DNA of 53,242 nt from Escherichia phage CF2. The translations under genes and the position numbers were made by a program. Location: sequence record KY608966, one strand, 5' to 3'. Shown piece by piece: positions 1-44,040 of this stretch (positions within the stretch are counted from its first letter, which is position 1; every line of letters starts with the position of its first letter). Under the pieces are notes generated by a model that did no database searches, was not told the origin of the DNA, and saw only the letters and a list, made by a program, of their open reading frames with translations.

Positions 1-304
1 AAAAAAATTTACGCCGGCGAAAAATAATAAAAAACCGGATTGATAAATAAATCTGTAGACGTTTACACGACCTTTATATAGATGTTATAATAACTATCTA
101 AAGTCCAGCAAAGGTATTGTAATGAATATACAACAGGAAGTACAAGCTGAATTTGATTATGTTGATGGCATGTTGTATCGTAAACATAGCCACGGTAACG
201 TCAAGCAAGGCGATAAATTTGGTACCGTAGTACCAGCAGGATACATTGAAGGCTTTTTCAAAAATAAGAAGACGTCTTTGCACGTTCTTGTCTGGCAATG
301 GCAC
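1..304. repeat. Direct terminal redundancy, left copy (identical to 52939-53242)
   Basis: Exact match of window start to window end (offset 52938); carries a promoter and the first 183 nt of the HNH gene. Confidence 0.9.
62..91 (+). promoter_or_regulatory. sigma70-type promoter (TTTACA-N18-TATAAT) upstream of HNH endonuclease gene
   Basis: Near-consensus -35 and -10 hexamers about 30 nt upstream of the ATG at 122. Confidence 0.5.
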
Positions 305-622
305 AATGGTGAAATACCGGAAGGTTATGTAGTAGACCACAAGGACCGCAATAAACTCAATTGTAAAATTGATAACTTACGCCTTGCTACAGCTAGCCAG
401 AATCAAGCTAATCGTGGGGTTAATTATAATAGTACAACAGGCGTCAAAGGTTTGCAGGTAACAACACAGCGTGGTTATACTTATTATGCTGCTAAGATAA
501 CTGTCAACGGTAAAAGATTGAGAAAAACCTTTAAATATACGGAAGAAGGCAAAGAATTAGCTATTGCCTGGCTTCAAGAACAACGTCAAAAATTACACGG
601 AGAATTTGCTTGTGATAACTAG
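122..622 (+). CDS. HNH homing endonuclease with AP2-like DNA-binding region
   Basis: 166-aa ORF; motif DHKDRNKLNCKIDNLRLATASQNQAN typical of the HNH_3 family. Confidence 0.8.
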   Translation: MNIQQEVQAEFDYVDGMLYRKHSHGNVKQGDKFGTVVPAGYIEGFFKNKKTSLHVLVWQWHNGEIPEGYVVDHKDRNKLNCKIDNLRLATASQNQANRGVNYNSTTGVKGLQVTTQRGYTYYAAKITVNGKRLRKTFKYTEEGKELAIAWLQEQRQKLHGEFACDN

Positions 623-662
623 AGCGTCAATTAGAGCGAAAGGACAGAACTTTGAGCGCAAA

Positions 663-1052
663 ATGGCTAAGAAGTTCAATAGCTCGTTTGGATTAACTGT
701 TGAGCGCAATCTTCAACAGTCTATTAATGGCGGGGATGACTTGCTGGGTGTACCGTTTTTCAGTGTTGAACTGAAGAAGCACAATACTAAGTCTATCGGA
801 ACATGGTGGAGACAGTGTGCGGCATCGGCAAAGGCTCAGAACAAGATGCCAGTGCTTATATACGAACTACCAAGAAAACAGCCTACCGTGGTGATGAATA
901 AGGCTGATGTGATTGACTGTTTTCCAAGTGGCACGACTTTTAACGAGGCATCGAACCGCCTCTTTGTGGGTCTGGTAGAATTAACATGGGAACAATTTTG
1001 CCGGGTCTACAACTATTACGTTGCGCCCGGCACTCAATATCACGTCAATTAA
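663..1052 (+). CDS. Putative VRR-NUC-like PD-(D/E)xK nuclease
   Basis: ORF 564-1052 is called from a TTG; first ATG at 663; motif GGDDLLGVPFFSVELKK resembles the VRR-NUC PDL...fvEvK signature. Confidence 0.45.
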   Translation: MAKKFNSSFGLTVERNLQQSINGGDDLLGVPFFSVELKKHNTKSIGTWWRQCAASAKAQNKMPVLIYELPRKQPTVVMNKADVIDCFPSGTTFNEASNRLFVGLVELTWEQFCRVYNYYVAPGTQYHVN

Positions 1053-1234
1053 TCTTGTTTCAGCTCGTTACAAATAACACGCTGATTTTTGGCGGGGATA
1101 ATACCAAGATTCAGTAGGGTGTATGGACTATCAGCGACGCATTGTTCAACGGTAGTCCATTCAGGTTTGGATTCAACAATTTCGTAATTGCAGTCGTGAG
1201 TTGCTATACATGTTGCCAGGATTAAGCCAATCAC
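1049..1234 (-). CDS. Hypothetical small early protein (61 aa)
   Basis: ORF track; GTG start overlaps the stop of the upstream gene (GTGA). Confidence 0.5.
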   Translation of the reverse strand: MIGLILATCIATHDCNYEIVESKPEWTTVEQCVADSPYTLLNLGIIPAKNQRVICNELKQD

Positions 1235-1410
1235 AAGTAATCTCCATCAACCAGAAACTCAAACAATTGGTTGTAAACGTTGCAACCTTTAGCGAAAGAG
1301 CTTTCAGCAGGTTTACCGTCGCGGACAATCATCATATACTCACCGCCATGGATGTCCACCCAGTATTGCATGCCACCTTTGACCGGATTACGTTGCAGAA
1401 ATTTAAACAT
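1231..1410 (-). CDS. Hypothetical small early protein (59 aa, MFKFLQRNPVKGG...)
   Basis: Hand-translated; below the ORF-track length cutoff; ATG overlaps upstream stop as TAATG; SD-like GGAGTCAGGAG upstream. Confidence 0.45.
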   Translation of the reverse strand: MFKFLQRNPVKGGMQYWVDIHGGEYMMIVRDGKPAESSFAKGCNVYNQLFEFLVDGDYL

Positions 1411-1655
1411 TATTTACTCCTGACTCCAAGTTTATTCAATAGCCACACTGTCATGTCAACCCAGGTTAACGGTACAGTTTTCGGGGGTTGATAATCCCAG
1501 CAGCTTGCAGTTCTTTGTATTTCTGCTTGGCGCCGCTCCGCTTCGCGTAATACCGCATCGTCAGAAGTGCCGGCAGAAAAAAGATCGGTAACACCAGATA
1601 AATCGCGTTGATTAACACGTCGAGCAATGTCATATAAATCATCCTTAGAAAACAT
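1410..1655 (-). CDS. Hypothetical early protein (81 aa); an alternative embedded frame exists
   Basis: 81-codon ORF, stop coupled to next gene via TAATG; no obvious SD; overlapping frame 1466-1633 has a better SD. Confidence 0.4.
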   Translation of the reverse strand: MFSKDDLYDIARRVNQRDLSGVTDLFSAGTSDDAVLREAERRQAEIQRTASCWDYQPPKTVPLTWVDMTVWLLNKLGVRSK

Positions 1656-1770
1656 AAGCCAATACCATAAGAATTATCAGAAAGATCCCAACCAGCTTCC
1701 TCATAGCCCGACCTTCAGCATATGCAGGATTCACAACAGAATACTCAACAACATGTTTACAGCGGACCAT
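1645..1770 (-). CDS. Hypothetical small membrane protein (41 aa, MVRCKHVVEYS...LVGIFLIILMVLAYVF)
   Basis: Hand-translated; GGAGG 5 nt upstream of ATG; C-terminal hydrophobic helix. Confidence 0.35.
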   Translation of the reverse strand: MVRCKHVVEYSVVNPAYAEGRAMRKLVGIFLIILMVLAYVF

Positions 1771-1831
1771 AAGGCCTCCACTTGTGGGTTAATTCAATCA
1801 TGAGGACTTTTGGCAAATCCTCATTGTTGAA

Positions 1832-2032
1832 TCACTCAATCATTATCTGTACTACTATTATACACTCTTTATTGAAGCGGGTAAACACCTTTCCACCATT
1901 GGTGCGTTTAGCTCCGGACTTTAGAGCTGACTGGCACCAGACATGCCACTCCTCAACTGTCAAGAATTTTTGCTCAGCTTTGGGTGGTAGTCCATTGGCA
2001 AGGTCTACCGTAGTAAATTTGACTAGTGGCAT
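1832..2032 (-). CDS. Hypothetical early protein
   Basis: ORF track; ATG overlaps upstream stop (TGATG). Confidence 0.5.
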   Translation of the reverse strand: MPLVKFTTVDLANGLPPKAEQKFLTVEEWHVWCQSALKSGAKRTNGGKVFTRFNKECIIVVQIMIE

Positions 2033-2421
2033 CACTTGACCTCAAATTTTGACTCGTCATATTCCGGATCAGTCACGTCCCGGGTCGCACAATTTTTGAT
2101 TGCATCCCAGTAACGTTGGGCATCATCGCCATCGACATAAACTGTCCAGTGGCCGTAACCACCTTCAAATCTGTCCCAGGCTTGTTCCCAGACTTTGCCA
2201 TCTTCCAGCTTGTACCAAGTTGGACGACTGTCAAACTCGCGGATTGGATGGTACCCCATCAAAGGATTCATCAGGTCAATAATGTCTTCCCGACTAATCT
2301 CCTGGTTCTCCCACAACACCGTCATGAATTGCTCAAACTTGAAGGCGTTTGGCAGAATTTTGATGACTTCACCATCACAATATACGGTATAGGTGCCATC
2401 TTCGCATTTTGCACTGTACAT
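2032..2421 (-). CDS. Hypothetical early protein (129 aa from internal ATG)
   Basis: ORF track 2032-2454; internal ATG at 2421 is preceded by AGGAGAGAGAAAC; the upstream ATG lies inside the conserved leader element. Confidence 0.6.
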   Translation of the reverse strand: MYSAKCEDGTYTVYCDGEVIKILPNAFKFEQFMTVLWENQEISREDIIDLMNPLMGYHPIREFDSRPTWYKLEDGKVWEQAWDRFEGGYGHWTVYVDGDDAQRYWDAIKNCATRDVTDPEYDESKFEVK

Positions 2422-2440
2422 GTTTCTCTCTCCTATTGAT

Positions 2441-2492
2441 ATAATTTCAATCATGAACTATCACAACTTTGGATAGTTCATTGTTGAAACTA
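2441..2492 (-). promoter_or_regulatory. Conserved early-operon stem-loop/leader element, copy a
   Basis: 10-bp arms ATGAACTATC/GATAGTTCAT flanked by TTTCAA/TTGAAA, followed on the mRNA strand by GATTGAAATTAT and SD AGGAGAGA. Confidence 0.4.
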
Positions 2493-2663
2493 TACTAACT
2501 TTGTTGCGATCTGAATTGTCAGCCGGAAGTCTTCCATCAAGTTATCAAACTCTTTGGAACCGCCAACCGCATCAGATATTTGGTCTTTCACAATTTGGGC
2601 ATTTGATTCCAGTAATTCAATCAGGTGCGCCAATTCGTCTTCAGTCAATTTCAGATCTTTCAT
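2490..2663 (-). CDS. Hypothetical small acidic early protein (57 aa)
   Basis: ATG at 2663 with SD GGTGGA; overlaps upstream stop. Confidence 0.55.
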   Translation of the reverse strand: MKDLKLTEDELAHLIELLESNAQIVKDQISDAVGGSKEFDNLMEDFRLTIQIATKLV

Positions 2664-2917
2664 AATGCATCCACCCAAGCCATAACTTTTGCCAGTCTTA
2701 CAACGTCTTCATGGTCCCGCTCGCCATCAGAAAATTCGCTGGCGATGATACCCATAATTGACGCCAGATTCATGTTGATGATGTAGGCGTGTTGGCGCAC
2801 TTCATCAATTCCTGAATCTATCACCAGTTCCGCAAATTCTTGTGAACCTTCATCCCATTCAGCCCAATACTGCTCAGCATAAAAGTCCAGTTCTTTTTTC
2901 ATCTCAATATCAGTCAT
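2660..2917 (-). CDS. Hypothetical acidic early protein (85 aa)
   Basis: ORF track; SD GAGGAG upstream of ATG. Confidence 0.6.
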   Translation of the reverse strand: MTDIEMKKELDFYAEQYWAEWDEGSQEFAELVIDSGIDEVRQHAYIINMNLASIMGIIASEFSDGERDHEDVVRLAKVMAWVDAL

Positions 2918-2922
2918 TTTGA

Positions 2923-3078
2923 TTACTCCTCAGAACCTGAAAATTTGTCGTCAATGGCTTCAACAATATAATCAAGAGTTGAAGTGTGAGAACTATCAGA
3001 AAAAGTGCCCATCTTCTCTAACTCAATCATCATATCCCGCAAGGCCATCGCCTGGTCTTTGGTCAGTTTGATTTTAAG
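2923..3078 (-). CDS. Hypothetical small early protein (51 aa from internal ATG)
   Basis: ORF track 2923-3123 starts at GTG inside hairpin; ATG at 3078 follows AGGAGAGAAAC. Confidence 0.5.
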   Translation of the reverse strand, partial: LKIKLTKDQAMALRDMMIELEKMGTFSDSSHTSTLDYIVEAIDDKFSGSEE

Positions 3079-3102
3079 CATGTTTCTCTCCTGTTGATTG
3101 TG

Positions 3103-3150
3103 AATAATTTCAATTGATGGCACTACTTGAGTGCCATCTCAAAAATTACT
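3103..3150 (-). promoter_or_regulatory. Conserved early-operon stem-loop/leader element, copy b
   Basis: 9-bp arms GATGGCACT/AGTGCCATC; followed on the mRNA strand by AATTGAAATTATT and SD AGGAGAGA. Confidence 0.4.
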
Positions 3151-3718
3151 CTTCAGTAGTTTCTTGTTCTTCAATTTCAGGTTTTTCTTCAGCTTCAGGT
3201 TTTTTGCCTGTTACTGATTTGCCGTCAGTCACTTTACCAGATTTTACATCATTACGGTAGTATGACATATATGACTGGATAACACGTTTTGCTCTAATAT
3301 CATCCGCTTCCATTCCGCAAGCTTTCATCGCATCAGCGAGTGCCAATTTGGAATCTTCTTTATCCATCAAGTTGTAATCTTTGAACACCAGATAGCAAGT
3401 ATCTTTAGTTGATGGACCAGATGACGATTTGCGAGAGCCACCAGCAGATGCTCGTGTTGTCGCAACTTTGACTTCTTCAACTTCCAGTTGGTTCAGCTCG
3501 TCAAACAAAGCCTTCACCAGCACTTCTTTAGAGTCTTTGACACTTACAGAACTTTCATCATTAAGCGACTTAATCATCTTAATGATCTGGTTATTGGCAA
3601 AGTACTGAAGACTATCCATCTGCACTACAATAGTGCCAAGACTTTCAGTAGTCAGACCAGATTTCACAGACTCGACAGAAAAAGCGGAAGTCAGGTAAAC
3701 GTAGTTGATAGTTGTCAT
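3146..3718 (-). CDS. Hypothetical early protein (190 aa) with acidic Glu/Lys-rich C-terminus
   Basis: ORF track; SD GAGGA upstream of ATG. Confidence 0.65.
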   Translation of the reverse strand: MTTINYVYLTSAFSVESVKSGLTTESLGTIVVQMDSLQYFANNQIIKMIKSLNDESSVSVKDSKEVLVKALFDELNQLEVEEVKVATTRASAGGSRKSSSGPSTKDTCYLVFKDYNLMDKEDSKLALADAMKACGMEADDIRAKRVIQSYMSYYRNDVKSGKVTDGKSVTGKKPEAEEKPEIEEQETTEE

Positions 3719-3769
3719 TTGATGTATCCTCGTTGATAGAATTTTTGATAGGTGTCAATCCTTGACAAG

Positions 3770-3815
3770 TAATTCCAATCATGACAACTTTTATCAAGTT
3801 GTCATTGTTGGAAAT
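3770..3815 (-). promoter_or_regulatory. Conserved early-operon stem-loop/leader element, copy c
   Basis: 10-bp arms ATGACAACTT/AAGTTGTCAT flanked by TTTCCAACA and GATTGGAATTA. Confidence 0.4.
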
Positions 3816-4117
3816 TACTTCGCGCTTGCGTTTTCAACAGCTTGTACGACTTTCAACAAATGCCTGAAGTCATCATGATAAACTTCATTAAAGCCATCTG
3901 CCGCAAAGTTTTCGCCAATTAAGATCAGTCTTTCGCGGACCAAGTCAATCAAGAGTTTATTGTCAGTTATTTCAGCACCTGTAATAAGTTCAACAAATAA
4001 TTGCTGTACGTTATCATAACAGATGTTGCTTTCAATACACACTTGGCGCATGTCTTCAACTATTGACATGATTGTGACTTGCATTTCTACGTCAGAAGTG
4101 ATGTTATTCAGTTTCAT
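3815..4117 (-). CDS. Hypothetical acidic early protein (100 aa)
   Basis: ORF track; SD AAGG upstream; first gene of the leftward early operon. Confidence 0.65.
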   Translation of the reverse strand: MKLNNITSDVEMQVTIMSIVEDMRQVCIESNICYDNVQQLFVELITGAEITDNKLLIDLVRERLILIGENFAADGFNEVYHDDFRHLLKVVQAVENASAK

Positions 4118-4140
4118 AATAGTTACCTTTGTATTAGTTT

Positions 4141-4190
4141 CCAGGCGTGACTACTGATACCAATAGTCACTGGTTGAAACTATTACTAGT
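4141..4190 (-). promoter_or_regulatory. Early-operon 5' leader stem-loop, copy d
   Basis: Imperfect palindrome CCAGGCGTGACTACTGATACCAATAGTCACTGG, then TTGAAACTATTACT as in copy a. Confidence 0.35.
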
Positions 4191-4333
4191 GTTACTATCA
4201 ACAAGAAACATGTTACCAAATTGTTAAAGAGCGGTCTGGTACTATTCGACCAGGTAAAGTTATTATTTGCGCATCTTGACGACACGCGCCAGACAAGACG
4301 CTTGACACATTCATCATTCGTCTTGATGTAATA

Positions 4334-4362
4334 ATTATAGGCCAGTCAATCAATGTTGTACA
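4334..4362 (-). promoter_or_regulatory. Candidate leftward early promoter (TGTACA-N17-TATAAT)
   Basis: Reverse complement of ATTATA at 4334-4339 and TGTACA at 4357-4362; weak -35. Confidence 0.3.
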
Positions 4363-4459
4363 TAAAAGAATTGCAAGTTTATGCAAGTTTTTAGAAATGA
4401 TAATCACTTGCGATTGAGAGTGGTTCTCGTATGCAATTGATATAGTTTCACATGTAATT

Positions 4460-4534
4460 ACTCAATCCAAAATGGTCGGCAGGGGTTATAATCACATAGG
4501 GGTGCCACTTAAAGGAGCCGGCGAAATTATTTCT
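4460..4534. repeat. ~75-bp dispersed repeat, copy R1
   Basis: TCAATCCAAAATGGTCGGCAGGGG...AGGGGTGCCAC...AGGAGCCGGCGAAATT; shares many anchored blocks with R2. Confidence 0.6.
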
Positions 4535-4596
4535 AAAAATATAATTTCAATCTGAATTATAGACGCTTTGTGTTATAACGGCCGAAGTAGTTCATA

Positions 4597-4650
4597 CGGT
4601 AATTGTATCAATCGCAATAGTTACCAGGGTAATCGTTTCAATCGAAATAG
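4597..4650. repeat. Imperfect tandem repeat (2 x 24 bp)
   Basis: CGGTAATTGTATCAATCGCAATAG vs GGGTAATCGTTTCAATCGAAATAG, 20/24 identical, 6 bp apart. Confidence 0.6.
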
Positions 4651-4709
4651 GTGCGGCGGGGGGTAATTTCGCAGGGGTGCTACCTGCCAGGAGCCAGCGG
4701 AATTTTTTT
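4633..4709. repeat. ~75-bp dispersed repeat, copy R2
   Basis: TTCAATCGAAATAGGTGCGGCGGGGGG...AGGGGTGCTAC...AGGAGCCAGCGGAATTTTTTT. Confidence 0.6.
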
Positions 4710-4858
4710 ATTTTTTGGTATTTTCTCCTTATCAGGACCAATCATCATCAGAGTAACACGGCAGGAGCTAACCTTTTGCTTATCACAATAATAAGTGAAG
4801 CCCCTCTAAAATTTTTTTATATTTTTCGGAAATTGTGTAGACACTCACTAAAAAGTGG

Positions 4859-4887
4859 TGTACTTTCTCTCCTCCACGCGCTATCAT
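4859..4887 (+). promoter_or_regulatory. Candidate rightward promoter (TGTACT-N17-TATCAT)
   Basis: Hexamers at the expected spacing ~50 nt upstream of the first rightward gene. Confidence 0.3.
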
Positions 4888-4937
4888 TAATGTGAATCAT
4901 CAAACGGCCTCACGGTCTCCTACTTGTGGGTAACATT

Positions 4938-5423
4938 ATGAAAATTGTTCAATTAGAGCCATATCCGCCTCAATTGGCTATCGTTTGCAGCGAAAAAGAG
5001 CACGAAGAGCTCCAAAAACTGATGGATTTGCCTGATTTTGGCAACTGGAATGACCGGGAAACACGTAATGCATCTACCTTTACATTCTCTCGCGTTAACT
5101 ATCCGTACCTGTTAATCGTCGTCGAACTGTACCACCCGGACGACCTGAAGTACAACACCATTTCCCACGAAGGCATTCACGTAATGTCATCGCTGATGAA
5201 CTATGTAGGGCTTAAATACGACCCAGAAAACGATGAATGGTACGCATATCAGCATGATTTCATCGTAAATGCCATTTGTAAGGCCCATGACGAGTATATA
5301 GAGCGCCAAAAAACGCCAAAAACTAAGCCAAAAATCGAAACAGGTAACCATCCTGCTATACTGCCACAAGACGTAATGAACTCGCTTTTGACTGACACTA
5401 CTGGGGACTTTTTAGGTGATTAA
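4938..5423 (+). CDS. Hypothetical protein with HExxH motif (possible zincin-like metallopeptidase)
   Basis: ORF 4926-5423 starts at GTG; first ATG at 4938; motif ISHEGIHVM. Confidence 0.55.
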   Translation: MKIVQLEPYPPQLAIVCSEKEHEELQKLMDLPDFGNWNDRETRNASTFTFSRVNYPYLLIVVELYHPDDLKYNTISHEGIHVMSSLMNYVGLKYDPENDEWYAYQHDFIVNAICKAHDEYIERQKTPKTKPKIETGNHPAILPQDVMNSLLTDTTGDFLGD

Positions 5424-6090
5424 TATAATCTTCGCAATGGGCCAAAATGGGGAATTCGGGTTGTCCCCGGAGTTTATGAAGCATCAGGTTGACTCGTGTA
5501 AGACCATGGAAGAGGTCCGTGCGCTTCCTAAATCGGGTCTACCCTGGAAATGTCCGTCAGACATGCTCTTTTTCAGGACTATGACTAATTCAGTTGCGAC
5601 AGAACCAGGCTATAATGCATATCAGCAACTACGTGGACAGTTCCCAAATGACCAGTTGCGAAACATGATAGCAGATGTAACGGTAAAAATGGTAGGGCAT
5701 AGTGTATTGTTAGCCGGTCGTAACACGTATATGACTATGAGTCTGCCTATGTCAGCCCACAGAATACTGCTGCCGGTATCTCGCCAGATTATGGCTTCAG
5801 AAGGCTACAATAATTTGGGTGAGATGGCAGCAGACCTTGAATCCAGAGGTACTGACGTCTGGATTGTAGGTGGTGCCGAATTGATACTTTCGGCCCTTGA
5901 AGAGCATGCAAAAGACTTACTCCGTATCGACAACATGTTTATCAGTACAATCAAGCAATCAGGTCCAAGTGATATTTTAATGGATCGTAGCAAATTAATG
6001 ATGTACATTGATAGCGACTTCACATATAATGATGAATATGTTGATAACAAACAAGTTCTGATACAACGGTATAGGAGTTTACACAAATGA
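5416..6090 (+). CDS. Dihydrofolate reductase, divergent with insertions
   Basis: IIFAMGQNGEFG...GLPWKCPSDMLFF...VLLAGRNTY...DVWIVGGAELI align to DHFR blocks; GTG start overlaps upstream stop. Confidence 0.6.
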   Translation: MINIIFAMGQNGEFGLSPEFMKHQVDSCKTMEEVRALPKSGLPWKCPSDMLFFRTMTNSVATEPGYNAYQQLRGQFPNDQLRNMIADVTVKMVGHSVLLAGRNTYMTMSLPMSAHRILLPVSRQIMASEGYNNLGEMAADLESRGTDVWIVGGAELILSALEEHAKDLLRIDNMFISTIKQSGPSDILMDRSKLMMYIDSDFTYNDEYVDNKQVLIQRYRSLHK

Positions 6091-12955: not shown

Positions 12956-12975
12956 CCCACAAACGGGACTAACAA

Positions 12976-13008
12976 AAGGCGAGCTGACGAGCTCGCCTTT
13001 TTTTATTT
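12976..13008 (+). terminator. Rho-independent terminator after the capsid gene
   Basis: GGCGAGC/GCTCGCC stem followed by TTTTTTTTATTT. Confidence 0.7.
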
Positions 13009-14426: not shown

Positions 14427-14877
14427 CGGTGCATGCATTATTGGTGAAGAGTCTGGTACAGTTGATGGTACGCCGTATGTTTATCTGCGTCCTGGTGATG
14501 CTTATGACTTCGGACCTCCTAGAACCAGACAAGGCTCTGACGGCTTTGAGTACGTCAGCAAGCCAATGATGACAGCTGTACGTATTACAGCTGTCGGTAA
14601 GAATGCTGCTGAGCTAATGCGTAAGCTACACATAGCGCTGGGTAGTTCACCAGCTAAGCAGTTTAACCGTTTACGGCATTATGCAATAACCAAAATATCG
14701 AAGATTGATAATGTCGGTGGTGCTATTGGTGCAGGCTATGCTCAGAAGTCAATGCTGACTGTTGATATTAGCTATGTGCATAAAGTTAAAATTGAGCAAC
14801 CGTACATCTACAAGGTTGACATCACTTGTATGGATGACAACGGTAACAAAGCGACTGGTACAGTAGAGGAACCGTAA
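14350..14877 (+). CDS. Hypothetical virion protein (start uncertain: GTG 14320 or ATG 14350)
   Basis: ORF track 14320-14877; overlaps upstream gene by 76 nt if ATG 14350 is used. Confidence 0.45.
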   Translation: MATTTLQQFSIKDLRELVQKLLTLPDGACIIGEESGTVDGTPYVYLRPGDAYDFGPPRTRQGSDGFEYVSKPMMTAVRITAVGKNAAELMRKLHIALGSSPAKQFNRLRHYAITKISKIDNVGGAIGAGYAQKSMLTVDISYVHKVKIEQPYIYKVDITCMDDNGNKATGTVEEP

Positions 14878-19174: not shown

Positions 19175-21304
19175 ATGTCGCTTCCACTTAATGAGGTTGT
19201 CGACGTCCAGTTCAGTAAGAGCAACGGGGGTAAAGGTTTTACCCCCAATGTTCCGCTGGAAGGTATAATGCTTTCCAACTACGAGTACTCAATCGTCGCG
19301 GGTGATGACCCTGTTCAGCTAGTTGTGCGTTACATTCCAACCAACGCTACTGAGCGTGGTATGGCATGGAAATCTAGCGACCCGGACGTTATCACTGTTG
19401 ATGAGCTCGGATTTGTGAAGCCACTGGCGGAAGGTGTTGCATACGTGACTGGTACGTCTGTTGACGGCGGTTATACAGTACGGGCAAAGTTTAACATTGC
19501 TCGGGCACCTATCCTTGTTGAATCTGTTACAGTGTCTCCCACAAGTGTGACACTTGAAGAGGGCAAGACTCAACGCCTGACATACACCTATTTACCTGCT
19601 AACGCAGATAATCCTGATTTCTACTGGATTTCAGATGATGAGTCTGTTGCTGTCGTTAGCGACAACGGGCTTGTCACTGCCATTGGAGATGGCGAAACAA
19701 CTGTAAACGTACAGTACGGTGTTGACAGCTCTATATTCGATAGCTGTACAGTAACTGTTATTCCTCCTGTTGTGCACGTTACAGGAGTCGAGTTTCTTAC
19801 TCAGTCACCTCTTAACGTTAATATCGGAAGCACAGCTGGTACTAGTATTCGTATATCGCCAGAAGATGCCACTGACAAAACAGTGACATACGAAAGCAAT
19901 GCACCTACTATAGCAACTGTGGACACTGACGGAAATGTTACTGGTATTGTAGCTGGTAATGCCACTGTTACTGTTAAGACGAATGACGGTGATAAGACTG
20001 ACACTCTTGACATTATAGTCAGGGTGCCTGCTGTAAATGTTACCGGTGTAAGTATTGACGAAGGCGATACAGCTTCCATGGAAGTTGGTGACACTCTTCA
20101 GCTACATGCCACTGTGACTCCTGAAAATGCTACTGACCCATCTGTTGTATGGAGTGCTCCTGTATCAGAAGTTGCGTCTGTTACTGAAGCTGGTTTGGTA
20201 ACCGCTAACGCTGCAGGCTTAATTGATGTTACTGTTATCACTAATGACGGGAACTTTACAGATAGAATCGAGGTTAAAGTTACAGACCCTAGCATCGCAG
20301 TTACGGATGTTGCATGGGCTCCTGACTCTCCGACTAAAGTAAGCGCTGGCCATCAGGTGCAGACTAAAATTGTTATAACACCTGACAACGCAACCAATAA
20401 AAAAGTCAGTTACAATAGCTCAAATCCTGACGCTGTTACTGTTGACACTAACGGAGTTATATACGGTCAATCTCCTGGAACTTCGACTATTACAGTTACA
20501 ACAGACGACGGTGGACTTGAGGCTTCATTTGTAGCTACTTGCACGGAGGTGGCTGTTATTACACCAGATGGTCTTGGTGGTATCCCAATTGGTGGTACTC
20601 AGCAGCTCACTTATACTGTTAGTCCGTCTGACGCTGAGCTGACTAATATTCGTTATGAGTCTGCTGACCCAGCTATTGCAACTGTTGATTCGTCTGGCGT
20701 TGTAACTGGTGTTGCTAGCGGCGGATGTAACATCTGGATTTACGCAACTAGCAATGGCGCTGACATTAGTGCAGCCACTTGGGCACAAATCTCTGAGAAG
20801 GTACAGGTATATCCTCAGTACGCCGAATGGCTTGTGGGTAACACCAAACAGCTTGATGTTGAGATTTATCCGTCGGACTCTAAGAGCGTTACCGTTACTT
20901 ATGAATCGTCAAATGACGCTATCATTAGTATAGATGCAAATGGTTTGATGACTGCTAAGTCTGAAGGTTCAGCAACTATTACTGCTAACGTTGTGATGAA
21001 CGGTGTTGCTGCGTCTGGTACAACATCTCCTTACGTGTCTGAGCTTTCTGTTACTACTGATTCGCTGCCTGCACTTACTGTTGGCAACACGCAGCAGCTG
21101 GTTGTAACTGTTAGACCTGAATACGCTAAGACAGACCCAGGCTATAACATTCAGTATACAACTACAGACGATACTGTCGCTACTGTAAGTACTACCGGTG
21201 TTATTACTGGCGTTGGTAACGGTGGATGTCGTATTGGTGCCACAGTAACTGTGAGAAATGCTACAGCGTCGGACAGCTCTTATCAGTCCGTCGATGCAGC
21301 ATAA
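19175..21304 (+). CDS. Multi-BIG2-repeat virion surface protein (709 aa)
   Basis: At least 7 tandem Ig-like modules; ATG at 19175 with SD AAGGAG (track start 19172 is TTG). Confidence 0.75.
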   Translation: MSLPLNEVVDVQFSKSNGGKGFTPNVPLEGIMLSNYEYSIVAGDDPVQLVVRYIPTNATERGMAWKSSDPDVITVDELGFVKPLAEGVAYVTGTSVDGGYTVRAKFNIARAPILVESVTVSPTSVTLEEGKTQRLTYTYLPANADNPDFYWISDDESVAVVSDNGLVTAIGDGETTVNVQYGVDSSIFDSCTVTVIPPVVHVTGVEFLTQSPLNVNIGSTAGTSIRISPEDATDKTVTYESNAPTIATVDTDGNVTGIVAGNATVTVKTNDGDKTDTLDIIVRVPAVNVTGVSIDEGDTASMEVGDTLQLHATVTPENATDPSVVWSAPVSEVASVTEAGLVTANAAGLIDVTVITNDGNFTDRIEVKVTDPSIAVTDVAWAPDSPTKVSAGHQVQTKIVITPDNATNKKVSYNSSNPDAVTVDTNGVIYGQSPGTSTITVTTDDGGLEASFVATCTEVAVITPDGLGGIPIGGTQQLTYTVSPSDAELTNIRYESADPAIATVDSSGVVTGVASGGCNIWIYATSNGADISAATWAQISEKVQVYPQYAEWLVGNTKQLDVEIYPSDSKSVTVTYESSNDAIISIDANGLMTAKSEGSATITANVVMNGVAASGTTSPYVSELSVTTDSLPALTVGNTQQLVVTVRPEYAKTDPGYNIQYTTTDDTVATVSTTGVITGVGNGGCRIGATVTVRNATASDSSYQSVDAA

Positions 21305-33875: not shown

Positions 33876-34077
33876 TAAGCCTGAAGTTGTTTATGTTGAC
33901 AGGGTAGTCAAGGTTTATCCGCCTGGTGCGTACCTGGTTAAATGCCATAAGCCTGAATTAACAGGTAACACCTGGAAGGCAATAGGTCAGTTAGCTATTG
34001 AACGTGGAACAGCTCTTGATGATTGTGCAGACAAGATGGACAGCATAATTAACTGGAGTAACAAAGGGGCCGAGTGA
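33802..34077 (+). CDS. o-spanin (Rz1-like lipoprotein), partly embedded in the i-spanin gene
   Basis: Signal peptide with lipobox-like LPFLNSC; start inside the Rz-like gene in another frame. Confidence 0.55.
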   Translation: MTKRQNMIRALIPLLLLPFLNSCADKPEVVYVDRVVKVYPPGAYLVKCHKPELTGNTWKAIGQLAIERGTALDDCADKMDSIINWSNKGAE

Positions 34078-34094
34078 TGGCCCCTTTATTTATT
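34064..34094. terminator. Bidirectional rho-independent terminator at the strand switch
   Basis: GGGGCC/GGCCCC hairpin flanked by a T-run on each strand. Confidence 0.6.
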
Positions 34095-39534: not shown

Positions 39535-39575
39535 TGGTAAAAATAAAAAGGACCAGCGTTAACTGGTCCTTTTGG
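39535..39575 (-). terminator. Strong rho-independent terminator (functional mainly on minus strand)
   Basis: AGGACCAG-CGTTAA-CTGGTCCT hairpin with TTTTTATTTTT after it on the minus strand. Confidence 0.7.
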
Positions 39576-44014: not shown

Positions 44015-44040
44015 CGAAAATAGGGGCCGAAGCCCCTATT
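44015..44040 (-). terminator. Intergenic GC hairpin with UUCG tetraloop (terminator/attenuator)
   Basis: AGGGGC-TTCG-GCCCCT followed by ATTTT on the minus strand. Confidence 0.4.

What the first reader, a model, noticed from the sequence alone, without database searches (positions are those of the whole stretch)
2421..4200. A conserved stem-loop plus leader element recurs before genes of the leftward early operon
At least four intergenic sites (2441-2492, 3103-3150, 3770-3815, 4141-4190) share one architecture on the mRNA strand: stop codon, TTTC(C)AACA, a 9-10-bp perfect hairpin with variable sequence, GATTG(A/G)AATTA, then a purine-rich SD (AGGAGAGAGAAAC) and ATG. Stem sequence varies while structure and flanks are kept, as expected for a selected RNA structure; the GATTGAAATTAT flank also occurs at 4540-4551. 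None has a U-tract, so they are unlikely to be plain terminators; RNase III-type processing sites, translational operators or anti-termination sites are candidates.
Basis: seen in the sequence. Interest (0 to 1): 0.55.

Follow-up and report, generated by a model that had tools for sequence, protein, structure and literature searches.

The report
T7-style RNA processing hairpins between early genes
Between the small early genes of this Salmonella/E. coli phage sits a conserved two-storey RNA hairpin that closely resembles the host RNase III cutting sites of phage T7, and the same hairpins mark the points where related phages have swapped, lost or gained genes.

Summary
The window is a BP63-like Rosemountvirus. 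There are five copies, including a missed one at 1790-1834. All lie on the mRNA strand of the leftward operon and nowhere else in the 53 kb. Across five phage lineages the helix covaries strongly (98% paired, 15/18 pairs with double changes) and is more stable on the sense strand in 21/22 variants. Geometry, intercistronic placement, stop codon in the lower stem, lack of a U-tract and an exact boxA in the leader all parallel the phage T7 early RNase III sites. Best explanation (about 0.55, cleavage not shown): host RNase III processing sites that cut the early polycistronic mRNA into stable, insulated segments. They are not terminators, not promoter cassettes and not the anti-termination signal. 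Gene swaps, deletions and insertions among relatives have their ends at these elements. This is a new member of a known kind, of moderate interest.

The parts
4334..4362 (-). Candidate sigma-70 promoter of the leftward operon (TGTACA-17-TATAAT)
   Evidence: Best minus-strand promoter-like match in 1-6000 (10/12), upstream of boxA. Consensus match only; the transcription start is not mapped.
4221..4232 (-). boxA (GCTCTTTAACAA) in the operon leader; presumed NusB/NusE-type anti-termination signal
   Evidence: Only exact match in the window. Present exactly once, in operon orientation and about 52 nt upstream of the first hairpin, in every relative's locus, and also in the T7 early leader at nt 813-824.
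4131..4186 (-). Site 4 (leader copy): lower stem 4176-4182/4135-4141, 5x5 internal loop, upper stem 4161-4170/4147-4156 (one U.G), loop 4157-4160. The extended imperfect arms reach 4200 and 4117 (SD/AUG of gA).
   Evidence: Fold -31.2 kcal/mol, z -4.3; model hit E 0.015; 38-nt inverted-repeat arms; conserved in relatives.
3767..3820 (-). Site 3 (gA-gB spacer): lower stem includes the UAA stop of gA; internal loop CA 3806-3807 / GA 3779-3780; upper stem 3796-3805/3781-3790; loop 3791-3795
   Evidence: Fold z -5.4; model E 4e-13; perfect 10-bp hairpin.
3102..3151 (-). Site 2 (gB-gC spacer), variant class: lower stem 3142-3151/3102-3111 (includes UAA), 3x4 internal loop UGA/AAUU, upper stem 3130-3138/3116-3124, loop 3125-3129
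   Evidence: Fold z -3.5. Geometry almost identical to T7 R0.5. In Loughboroughvirus the upper stem is wholly replaced with pairing kept.
2435..2499 (-). Site 1 (gE-gF spacer): lower stem of 12 bp or more includes the UAG stop; CA 2482-2483 / GA 2451-2452; upper stem 2472-2481/2453-2462; loop 2463-2471
   Evidence: Fold z -5.4. Model 44.9 bits, E 2e-8, although not in the seed. The Erwinia phage ortholog carries a compensatory A-U to U-A change.
1790..1834 (-).
   Evidence: Exact flank-pattern match; fold z -3.7; model E 4e-13.
3079..3115 (-). 3' arm, SD and ATG joint after site 2. It is homologous to the joint after site 1 (2419-2452) and is a substrate for inter-element recombination.
   Evidence: In emiel, SPLA11 and AV127 the crossover that deletes gC-gE lies in the 22-38 nt shared by these two joints.

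Best explanation
The elements are intercistronic RNA processing signals of the phage T7 type. The leftward operon is transcribed by host RNA polymerase as one long early mRNA from a sigma-70-like promoter, with a boxA in the leader to keep the polymerase elongating. In the leader and in each gap between non-overlapping genes, the RNA folds into a quasi-continuous helix of about two turns. The helix has a built-in defect (a C.A/A.G 2x2 loop, or a 3x4 or 5x5 loop) about 10-11 bp below the apical loop. Host RNase III binds this helix and cuts at or next to the defect, probably on the 3' side only. This leaves the upstream segment capped by a protective 3' hairpin and releases the downstream segment with a short leader and a free SD. 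The operon would thus be cut into five segments (gA; gB; gC-gE; gF-gG; gH-gK) whose stability and translation are insulated from their neighbours.

Because each joint is similar in sequence (stop codon, lower arm, then lower arm, SD, ATG), the joints also act as homologous recombination points where gene modules are exchanged.

Shown here: the structure, its covariation, its strand, placement and geometry, the T7 parallels, and the recombination joints. Inferred: that RNase III is the enzyme, the position of the cut, and the effects on stability and translation.
For: 1. Each site folds into the two-tier helix, z -3.5 to -5.4. All 22 distinct relatives' copies fold the same way without constraints.
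2. Covariation over 22 distinct copies from 12 loci in five lineages: 98% of cells paired against 73.5% shuffled, 15/18 pairs with changes on both sides, score 0.655 against 0.10 or less for slid registers, 0/500 shuffles. There are also whole-stem replacements at orthologous sites.
3. RNA level and sense strand: 31 G.U pairs, sense more stable in 21/22 copies (mean -3.4 kcal/mol). Antisense model scores are 20-40 bits lower.
4. Geometry is constrained while sequence is free: upper stem 9-12 bp (mode 10), then a defect, then a lower stem, 18-24 bp in all. Published E. coli RNase III rules are about two helical turns, at least 11 bp between cut and loop, and an internal loop that restricts cleavage to one strand and leaves a protective 3' hairpin.
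5. T7 early intergenic spacers fold the same way. R0.5 is 8 bp / 4x5 / 10 bp / loop 5; window site 2 is 10 / 3x4 / 9 / 5. T7 also has the stop codon in the lower stem and a conserved 3' junction, CCUUUAUGAUUGA, against UCAUGAUUGAA here.
6. The leader order is the same as in T7: promoter, exact boxA, two-tier hairpin, first gene.
7. All four operon gaps longer than 10 nt, plus the leader, carry an element, and there are none elsewhere in 53 kb.
8. T7 R0.5 and R1.1 are documented to insulate flanking cistrons, which fits elements that travel with shuffled modules.
Against: There are no cleavage data, no transcript-end data and no rnc host phenotype for any phage of this group.

The model finds no match in T7, so the resemblance is architectural and not homology.

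The proximal/distal-box test is inconclusive. If the register is set by the internal loop, the common AUGA/UCAU class fits (pb position 2 = U:A, position 1 = G:C), but the AGUG-type stems put a G:C at the inhibitory position 2. Validated in vivo sites often miss the consensus anyway.

The sequence conservation of the internal loop and adjacent pairs is tighter than RNase III is known to need, which could mean a different, sequence-specific protein.

A 2x2 loop might allow cuts on both strands, which would destabilise the upstream RNA rather than protect it.

One relative (renfri) has lost site 2 altogether, so single sites are dispensable. The same is true of the T7 sites (my own recollection).
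Confidence: 0.55

Rival explanations
1. Passive stabiliser hairpins. The helices are not cleaved but block 3'-to-5' exonucleases, as REP elements do in E. coli operons, giving differential stability to upstream segments after RNase E cuts elsewhere.
For: Stable hairpins (-20 to -31 kcal/mol) directly after stop codons and without a U-tract. Sense-strand specific.
Against: Any stable hairpin would do for this purpose. It does not explain the helix defect conserved at a fixed 9-12 bp from the loop, the conserved CA/GA loop, the covarying lower stem, or the copy in the leader upstream of the first gene, where there is no upstream cistron to protect.
Confidence: 0.15
2. Binding sites for a sequence-specific RNA-binding protein or nuclease other than RNase III, phage-encoded or host. 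The protein would recognise the CA/GA internal loop and its neighbouring pairs, for example as a translational operator or a dedicated processing enzyme.
For: The internal loop and flanking pairs (CAA-CA-AUG / CAU-GA-UUG) are far more conserved than the rest. At site 4 the extended helix reaches the SD/AUG of gA. The operon encodes ten ORFans with no recognisable domain, any of which could be such a protein.
Against: No candidate protein has been identified. In sites 1, 2, 3 and 5 the SD lies outside the helix. Variant classes with quite different loops (3x4 UGA/AAUU, 5x5, 1x1) occupy equivalent positions, which argues for shape recognition rather than sequence recognition.
Confidence: 0.12
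3. PeSL-like transcriptional cassettes, as in T4-type phages: each element would be a terminator plus an early promoter that restarts transcription for the next module.
For: Same placement between small ORFan genes, and the same evolutionary behaviour: indels and module swaps end at the elements. PhagePromoter marked two of the homologous spacers in phage S144.
Against: No -35/-10 pair recurs at a fixed position in the elements. The scan finds promoter-like hits only sporadically and in different registers. There is no U-tract or G+C-rich stem. The S144 promoters are unvalidated software predictions. Strong covariation of a 20-bp helix with G.U pairs is not expected for a promoter.
Confidence: 0.05
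4. DNA-level elements: palindromes that act as cruciforms or recombination/protein-binding sites, with the RNA structure incidental.
For: They are imperfect palindromes and are demonstrably recombination joints.
Against: G.U pairs, which would be A.C mismatches on the other strand, make the sense strand more stable in 21/22 variants. Upper-stem sequence and loop length vary freely, so there is no fixed duplex site for a protein. The observed crossovers need only the shared 22-38 nt of ordinary homology.
Confidence: 0.05
5. Anti-termination (nut/put-like) or RNA polymerase pause signals.
For: The operon does appear to use anti-termination, given boxA in the leader.
Against: boxA is a separate single element at 4221-4232. 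The hairpins are much longer than a boxB hairpin (my own recollection of boxB: about 5 bp with a purine-rich pentaloop), carry no boxA, and recur after every module rather than once per operon.
Confidence: 0.03

Closest known systems
Phage T7 early RNase III processing sites (R0.3, R0.5, R1, R1.1, R1.3)
   Same: Located in the leader and between cistrons of an early polycistronic mRNA made by host RNA polymerase. Two-tier helix with a 9-10-bp upper stem, an internal loop and a lower stem of about 8 bp. Stop codon of the upstream gene in the lower stem. No U-tract. Sequence conserved around the loop and free at the top of the stem. 3' junction ...AUGAUUGA... in both. An exact boxA upstream of the first site.
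   Different: No detectable homology (no model hit in T7). The internal loop here is usually a symmetric 2x2 (C.A/A.G) rather than the asymmetric 4x5 of T7. The stems are A/U-rich. The host phage is an unrelated myovirus of about 52 kb with no phage RNA polymerase. Cleavage is undemonstrated.
PeSL (promoter-early stem-loop) cassettes of T4-type phages
   Same: Short repeated regulatory elements between small, variable early genes. Recombination between copies produces deletions, insertions and module swaps between close relatives.
   Different: PeSLs are defined as a sigma-70 early promoter plus a terminator stem-loop. Here there is no recurring promoter and no terminator features. The conserved part is an RNA helix with covariation.
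Lambda N-leader and sib RNase III sites (my own recollection)
   Same: RNase III hairpins in phage mRNAs that control translation or stability. boxA-linked early transcription.
   Different: The lambda sites are single and gene-specific, not a repeated intercistronic family. Lambda boxA works with boxB and the N protein, and neither is evident here.
Bacterial REP/BIME intergenic palindromes (my own recollection)
   Same: Repeated imperfect palindromes in intercistronic regions that can stabilise upstream mRNA.
   Different: REP copies share stem sequence. Here the upper stems are unrelated and only the geometry and the base of the helix are kept.

Membership tests
Bacterial RNase III hairpin substrates of the T7 early type | Quasi-continuous double helix of about two turns (about 20-22 bp) | tested here: met
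   18-24 helical positions in all five window sites and in all 22 distinct relatives' copies. Criterion taken from PMC1540722.
Bacterial RNase III hairpin substrates of the T7 early type | Internal loop or bulge at the target site, about 11 bp from the apical loop, which restricts cleavage to one strand | tested here: met
   A helix defect always follows an upper stem of 9-12 bp (mode 10). The defect is 2x2 CA/GA, or 1x1, 3x4, 4x3 or 5x5. T7 sites fold with 9-10-bp upper stems.
Bacterial RNase III hairpin substrates of the T7 early type | Intercistronic or leader position in a polycistronic transcript, not followed by a U-tract | tested here: met
   All four gaps longer than 10 nt, plus the leader. 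No terminator-like hit at any site.
Bacterial RNase III hairpin substrates of the T7 early type | No inhibitory G:C pairs at proximal-box positions 2 and 4; favourable distal box | tested here: inconclusive
   The register is unknown without a mapped cut. With position 4 taken as the A.G mismatch, the AUGA, AAGU and GUGA classes pass (U:A or A:U at position 2), but the AGUG class has G:C there (rules). The distal box UA/UG is not conserved. In vivo sites often miss the consensus.
Bacterial RNase III hairpin substrates of the T7 early type | Cleavage by RNase III in vitro, or rnc-dependent ends in vivo | not testable with these tools
   No transcript-end or rnc data were found for this phage group.
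PeSL cassettes (T4-type phages) | Contains a strong sigma-70-type early promoter | tested here: not met
   No -35/-10 pair recurs at a common position. Hits are isolated and in different registers. Definition.
PeSL cassettes (T4-type phages) | The stem-loop acts as a transcription terminator | tested here: not met
   A/U-rich stems with no U-tract, and the terminator scan finds nothing at the sites. Actual termination cannot be measured here.
PeSL cassettes (T4-type phages) | Copies are end points of indels and module swaps between close relatives | tested here: met
   gA swap, gC-gE deletion, SE13 module insertion, KE24 insertion ending in a truncated element, and relocation of the gB module.
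nut/rrn-type anti-termination sites | boxA sequence (GCTCTTTAACAA-like) within the element | tested here: not met
   boxA occurs once, in the leader at 4221-4232, and not in the hairpin elements.
Intrinsic (Rho-independent) terminators | G+C-rich stem followed by a U-tract | tested here: not met
   Element G+C is 0.25-0.42 and there is no T run. Classic terminators with A/T tracts exist elsewhere in the window, for example 12974-13001 and 39546-39573.

The most novel reading that the evidence does not exclude
The elements are portable 'stop codon, processing hairpin, SD' joints that do two jobs. As RNA they are cut by RNase III (or a dedicated factor), so each ORFan module is expressed independently of its neighbours. 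As DNA their shared arms are the homologous joints at which modules are exchanged within and between phage genera. They would be an RNA-processing counterpart of the promoter/terminator PeSL cassettes of T4-type phages, and an explanation of how early 'host-takeover' gene sets can be shuffled without disturbing expression.
Probability: 0.35. Interest if true: 0.6.

Novelty: new member of a known kind. Interest (0 to 1): 0.47.

Why it matters
RNase III processing of early mRNA is textbook for T7 but has been documented for few other phage groups. Here an unrelated group of myoviruses used in Salmonella and E. coli biocontrol (Rosemountvirus, Loughboroughvirus and allies) shows the same design, apparently arrived at independently. 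It has clean covariation and a clear prediction of where the cuts should fall.

If confirmed, this would give:
- a set of short, sequence-diverse natural insulator parts for synthetic operons, in the way T7 R0.5 and R1.1 are already used;
- a correct transcript map for phages whose records currently carry only software-predicted promoters in these spacers;
- a concrete mechanism linking RNA processing sites to the modular shuffling of early ORFan genes.

Tried and rejected
1. MAFFT alignment of the copies failed because the upper stems are unrelated. I seeded a covariance model with equal-length copies. One seed (the fHy-Eco03 copy) was artificially lengthened by one A.T pair to fit. It was used only for searching, and no covariation count includes it.
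2. A scan of metagenome contigs for the two flanks at the right spacing gave 120 or more hits, but none of the 80 fetched loci has a structured element. These are chance matches, so the scan says nothing about distribution.
3. A viral-contig pattern scan found only the same phage group.
4. Rfam: nothing meaningful in 1-6000.
5. Pfam on ten operon proteins: no domains, so no candidate RNA-binding partner.
6. The promoters annotated in the S144 record coincide with two spacers but are PhagePromoter predictions, so they are rejected as evidence.
7. Host-factor and genome papers on these phages do not mention rnc, hairpins or processing.
8. The proximal/distal-box test is inconclusive without a mapped cut.
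9. The 4540-4551 motif is not a copy.
10. The T7 cleavage coordinates (890, 1468, 5887) are from my memory of Dunn and Studier 1983. All three fall on the same U of UAU|GAU in the sequences, but I could not verify them in a held paper.
Full report
**Context.** The window is a member of the BP63-like Salmonella/E. coli myophages (genus Rosemountvirus, about 52 kb). Sixty-one phage records match the first 6 kb, most at 90-99% identity. The finding lies in a leftward (minus-strand) operon of eleven small ORFs running from 4117 to about 1049, here called gA to gK. None has a Pfam domain. Relatives' records annotate these genes as hypothetical and do not annotate the hairpins. The only regulatory annotation in a relative (phage S144) is a set of PhagePromoter predictions, and that paper never mentions hairpins.

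**Observation check.**
- Perfect hairpins of 9-10 bp at 2453-2481, 3116-3138 and 3781-3805 are the only intergenic perfect hairpins of 9 bp or more in the 53 kb that lack an A/T tract. One further 9-bp hairpin (3557-3586) lies inside gB, and a 10-bp one at 14571-14595 was not examined. The others of that size that I looked at are classic AAAA...TTTT terminators.
- No site is followed by a U-tract, and the terminator scan finds nothing at them.
- Sites 2 and 4 depart from the stated flank consensus. The AGGAGAGA-type SD follows only sites 1 and 2. The extra GATTGAAATTA at 4542-4552 is part of a different local hairpin and is not a copy.

**Anatomy.** The key correction is that the two 'conserved flanks' are complementary to each other. 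Folding each whole spacer as RNA gives the same two-tier helix at all five sites:
- a lower stem of 8-12 bp whose 5' arm contains the stop codon of the upstream gene;
- an internal loop (2x2, 5'-CA/5'-GA, in sites 1, 3 and 5; 3x4 in site 2; 5x5 in site 4);
- a perfect or near-perfect upper stem of 9-10 bp;
- a loop of 4-9 nt.

The total is 18-24 helical positions, with energies of -22 to -31 kcal/mol and z-scores of -3.5 to -5.4. All four gaps longer than 10 nt in the operon carry one element, and the fifth is in the leader before gA. The other gene junctions overlap. At site 4 the extended arms (38 nt, 74% complementary) reach the SD and AUG of gA.

**Statistics and distribution in the window.** I built a covariance model with the explicit two-tier structure from four equal-length copies, one of them artificially padded by one base pair and used for searching only. 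Run with filters off over both strands of the whole window, it scores only the operon sites:
- sites 3 and 5: E 4e-13;
- site 1 (not in the seed): 44.9 bits, E 2e-8;
- site 4: E 0.015;
- site 2: weak (E 4.3), because its internal loop differs.

Antisense scores are 20-40 bits lower. Eighty metagenome loci that contain both flanks at the right spacing by chance give no model hit, which shows that the model needs the helix.

**Comparative evidence.** The element is present in the homologous operon of every relative examined: other Rosemountviruses, Loughboroughvirus (S144, ZCSE2, SE4), fHy-Eco03, Erwinia phage SOI901, vB_SE1_KM and an IMG/VR contig. The neighbouring protein gB is only 62-70% identical in the distant ones.
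- Upper stems at different sites, and sometimes at the same site, are unrelated in sequence. Examples are ATGAACTATC, AGTGATTATC, GTGACAATTA, AAGTCTCCA, ATGCGGTAT and AAGTCCTTGC. Site 2's GATGGCACT is replaced by CAGACCTCT in Loughboroughvirus.
- The geometry is nevertheless kept: an upper stem of 9-12 bp (mode 10), then a helix defect, then the lower stem.
- On 22 distinct sense-strand copies, 98% of cells are paired (shuffled 73.5%), 15 of 18 pairs change on both sides, and the covariation score is 0.655 against 0.10 or less for any slid register. No shuffle out of 500 reaches the observed values. The caveat is that this alignment is fitted to the model.
- Each of the 22 copies also folds into the two-tier structure on its own. 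There are 31 G.U pairs, and the sense strand is the more stable in 21 of 22 (mean difference -3.4 kcal/mol).

This is a selected RNA structure on the mRNA strand, not a DNA palindrome.

**Comparison with T7.** The T7 early intergenic spacers, which hold its RNase III sites, fold into the same design. R0.5 is an 8-bp lower stem, a 4x5 loop, a 10-bp upper stem and a 5-nt loop. Window site 2 is 10 bp, 3x4, 9 bp and 5 nt. In T7 too, the upstream stop codon lies in the lower stem, the sequence is conserved around the loop and free at the top, and the 3' junction reads CCUUUAUGAUUGA, against UCAUGAUUGAA here. From my memory of Dunn and Studier 1983, the T7 cuts are at nt 890, 1468 and 5887. All three fall after the same U of UAU|GAU in those sequences. 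I could not verify this in a held paper, although R0.5 and R1.1 are confirmed there as efficient early-region RNase III sites that insulate flanking cistrons. The model finds nothing in T7, so this is convergence of design and not homology.

**boxA.** The leader of this operon has an exact GCTCTTTAACAA at 4221-4232, the only exact copy in the window. It is present once, in the same orientation and about 52 nt before the first hairpin, in every relative. It is also in T7 at nt 813-824, between the A promoters and R0.3. Both phages therefore have the order promoter, boxA, two-tier hairpin, first early gene.

**Fit to published RNase III rules.** E. coli RNase III substrates typically span two helical turns. 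At least 11 bp are needed between the cut and the loop. Internal loops restrict cleavage to one strand and leave a 3' hairpin that protects against exonucleases. G:C pairs at proximal-box positions 2 and 4 are inhibitory. The helix length and the defect at 10-11 bp fit. If position 4 is the A.G mismatch, the common AUGA/UCAU base of the upper stem gives A:U, U:A and G:C at positions 3, 2 and 1, close to T7's A:U, A:U, G:C. The AGUG-type stems, however, would put a G:C at position 2. Without a mapped cut the register is unknown, and validated in vivo sites often miss the consensus, so this test is inconclusive.

**Recombination joints.** Alignment break points between the window and ten Rosemountvirus relatives mostly fall at an element or its attached SD-ATG leader.
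- gA is replaced by other genes exactly from its ATG to the start of site 3 in six genomes.
- gC-gE are deleted in emiel, SPLA11 and AV127 by a crossover within the 22-38 nt shared by the joints after sites 2 and 1.
- SE13 carries a 345-bp insertion at site 5 that is a complete module (its own CA/GA hairpin, SD and a 101-aa ORF). The same module is present at that place in Loughboroughvirus.
- KE24's extra gene ends in a truncated site-3-type element.
- Between genera, the gB-plus-hairpin module sits either before gC or after gG.
- Exceptions are three breaks in the fragmentary SPHG1 record.

Counted as independent events the numbers are small, roughly 5 of 8, while elements plus margins occupy about 13% of the operon. 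This is suggestive, not proven. Renfri has lost site 2 through a deletion of about 100 nt that fuses gB to gC, so single sites are dispensable.

**Interpretation.** The best-supported reading (about 0.55) is T7-type RNase III processing sites that cut the early polycistronic RNA into stable, insulated segments. The shared joints incidentally serve as homologous recombination points.

Rivals:
- Uncleaved exonuclease barriers (0.15). This does not explain the fixed-distance defect, the covarying lower stem or the leader copy.
- A sequence-specific binding protein or other nuclease (0.12). The tight conservation of the CA/GA loop favours it, but the variety of loop classes and the lack of a candidate protein count against it.
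- PeSL-like promoter/terminator cassettes (0.05). There is no recurring promoter and there are no terminator features.
- DNA-level palindromes (0.05). The strand asymmetry counts against them.
- Anti-termination signals (0.03). boxA is a separate element.

**Novelty.** Nothing in the papers that mention these genera describes the elements, and Rfam has no matching family. The kind of element, RNase III sites between phage early genes, is well known from T7, so this is a new member of a known kind. The added points of interest are the very clean covariation and the link to modular gene shuffling. Cleavage itself remains to be shown.

Noticed in passing
window 4221-4232 (-): Exact rrn/lambda-type boxA (GCTCTTTAACAA) in the operon leader. 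It is conserved once per genome in all relatives examined and also present in the T7 early leader (nt 813-824). Including the following bases, the match to T7 is GCTCTTTAACAATYTGGTAA.
   Followed up: yes
window 4233-4925: The non-coding region of about 800 bp (4118-4925) between the divergent operons has its own repeats, which lie upstream of boxA: a tandem 30-nt pair (4583-4642), units spaced about 176 nt apart (4477-4532 and 4654-4708), several GATTGA-N-ATTAC motifs, and an A/T hairpin at 4523-4548. These could be an origin, operators or promoters. Their function is unknown.
   Followed up: partly
window 4232 / 4233 boundary: In many Rosemountvirus relatives, homology to the window begins exactly at boxA (4232). 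The promoter-side sequence upstream is replaced, so the promoter region is itself a swapped module.
   Followed up: partly
L014 (phage fHy-Eco03) 2206-5904: In fHy-Eco03 the whole small-gene operon lies inside a 3,699-bp direct terminal repeat determined with PhageTerm. Records of the BP63 group, and possibly this window, may lack an equivalent repeat only because of how they were assembled.
   Followed up: no
window 4117-4200 (-): The extended arms of site 4 (38 nt, 74% complementary) pair the SD and AUG of gA with upstream leader sequence. Processing or unfolding here could control gA translation.
   Followed up: partly
window 1857-1885 (-): A good sigma-70-like site (TTTACC-17-TATAAT, 10/12) lies inside the 3' end of gG, about 20 nt upstream of site 5. 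It is a possible internal promoter.
   Followed up: no
window 3146-3230 (-); L141 1850-1880: The 3' end of gB encodes an acidic repeat (KPEAEEKPEIEEQE), which is annotated as a repeat_region in relatives. In phage renfri a deletion between this repeat and codon 2 of gC removes site 2 and the start of gC.
   Followed up: partly
window 12974-13001, 19226-19246, 34063-34087, 39546-39573, 44019-44040: Perfect 9-12-bp G+C-containing hairpins flanked by A and T runs. They look like bidirectional intrinsic terminators and are of a different kind from the operon hairpins.
   Followed up: no
hit H60, PP583539.1: A record named 'Listeria phage 220426122051' is about 91% identical to these Salmonella/E. 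coli phages over the operon. The host label looks doubtful.
   Followed up: no
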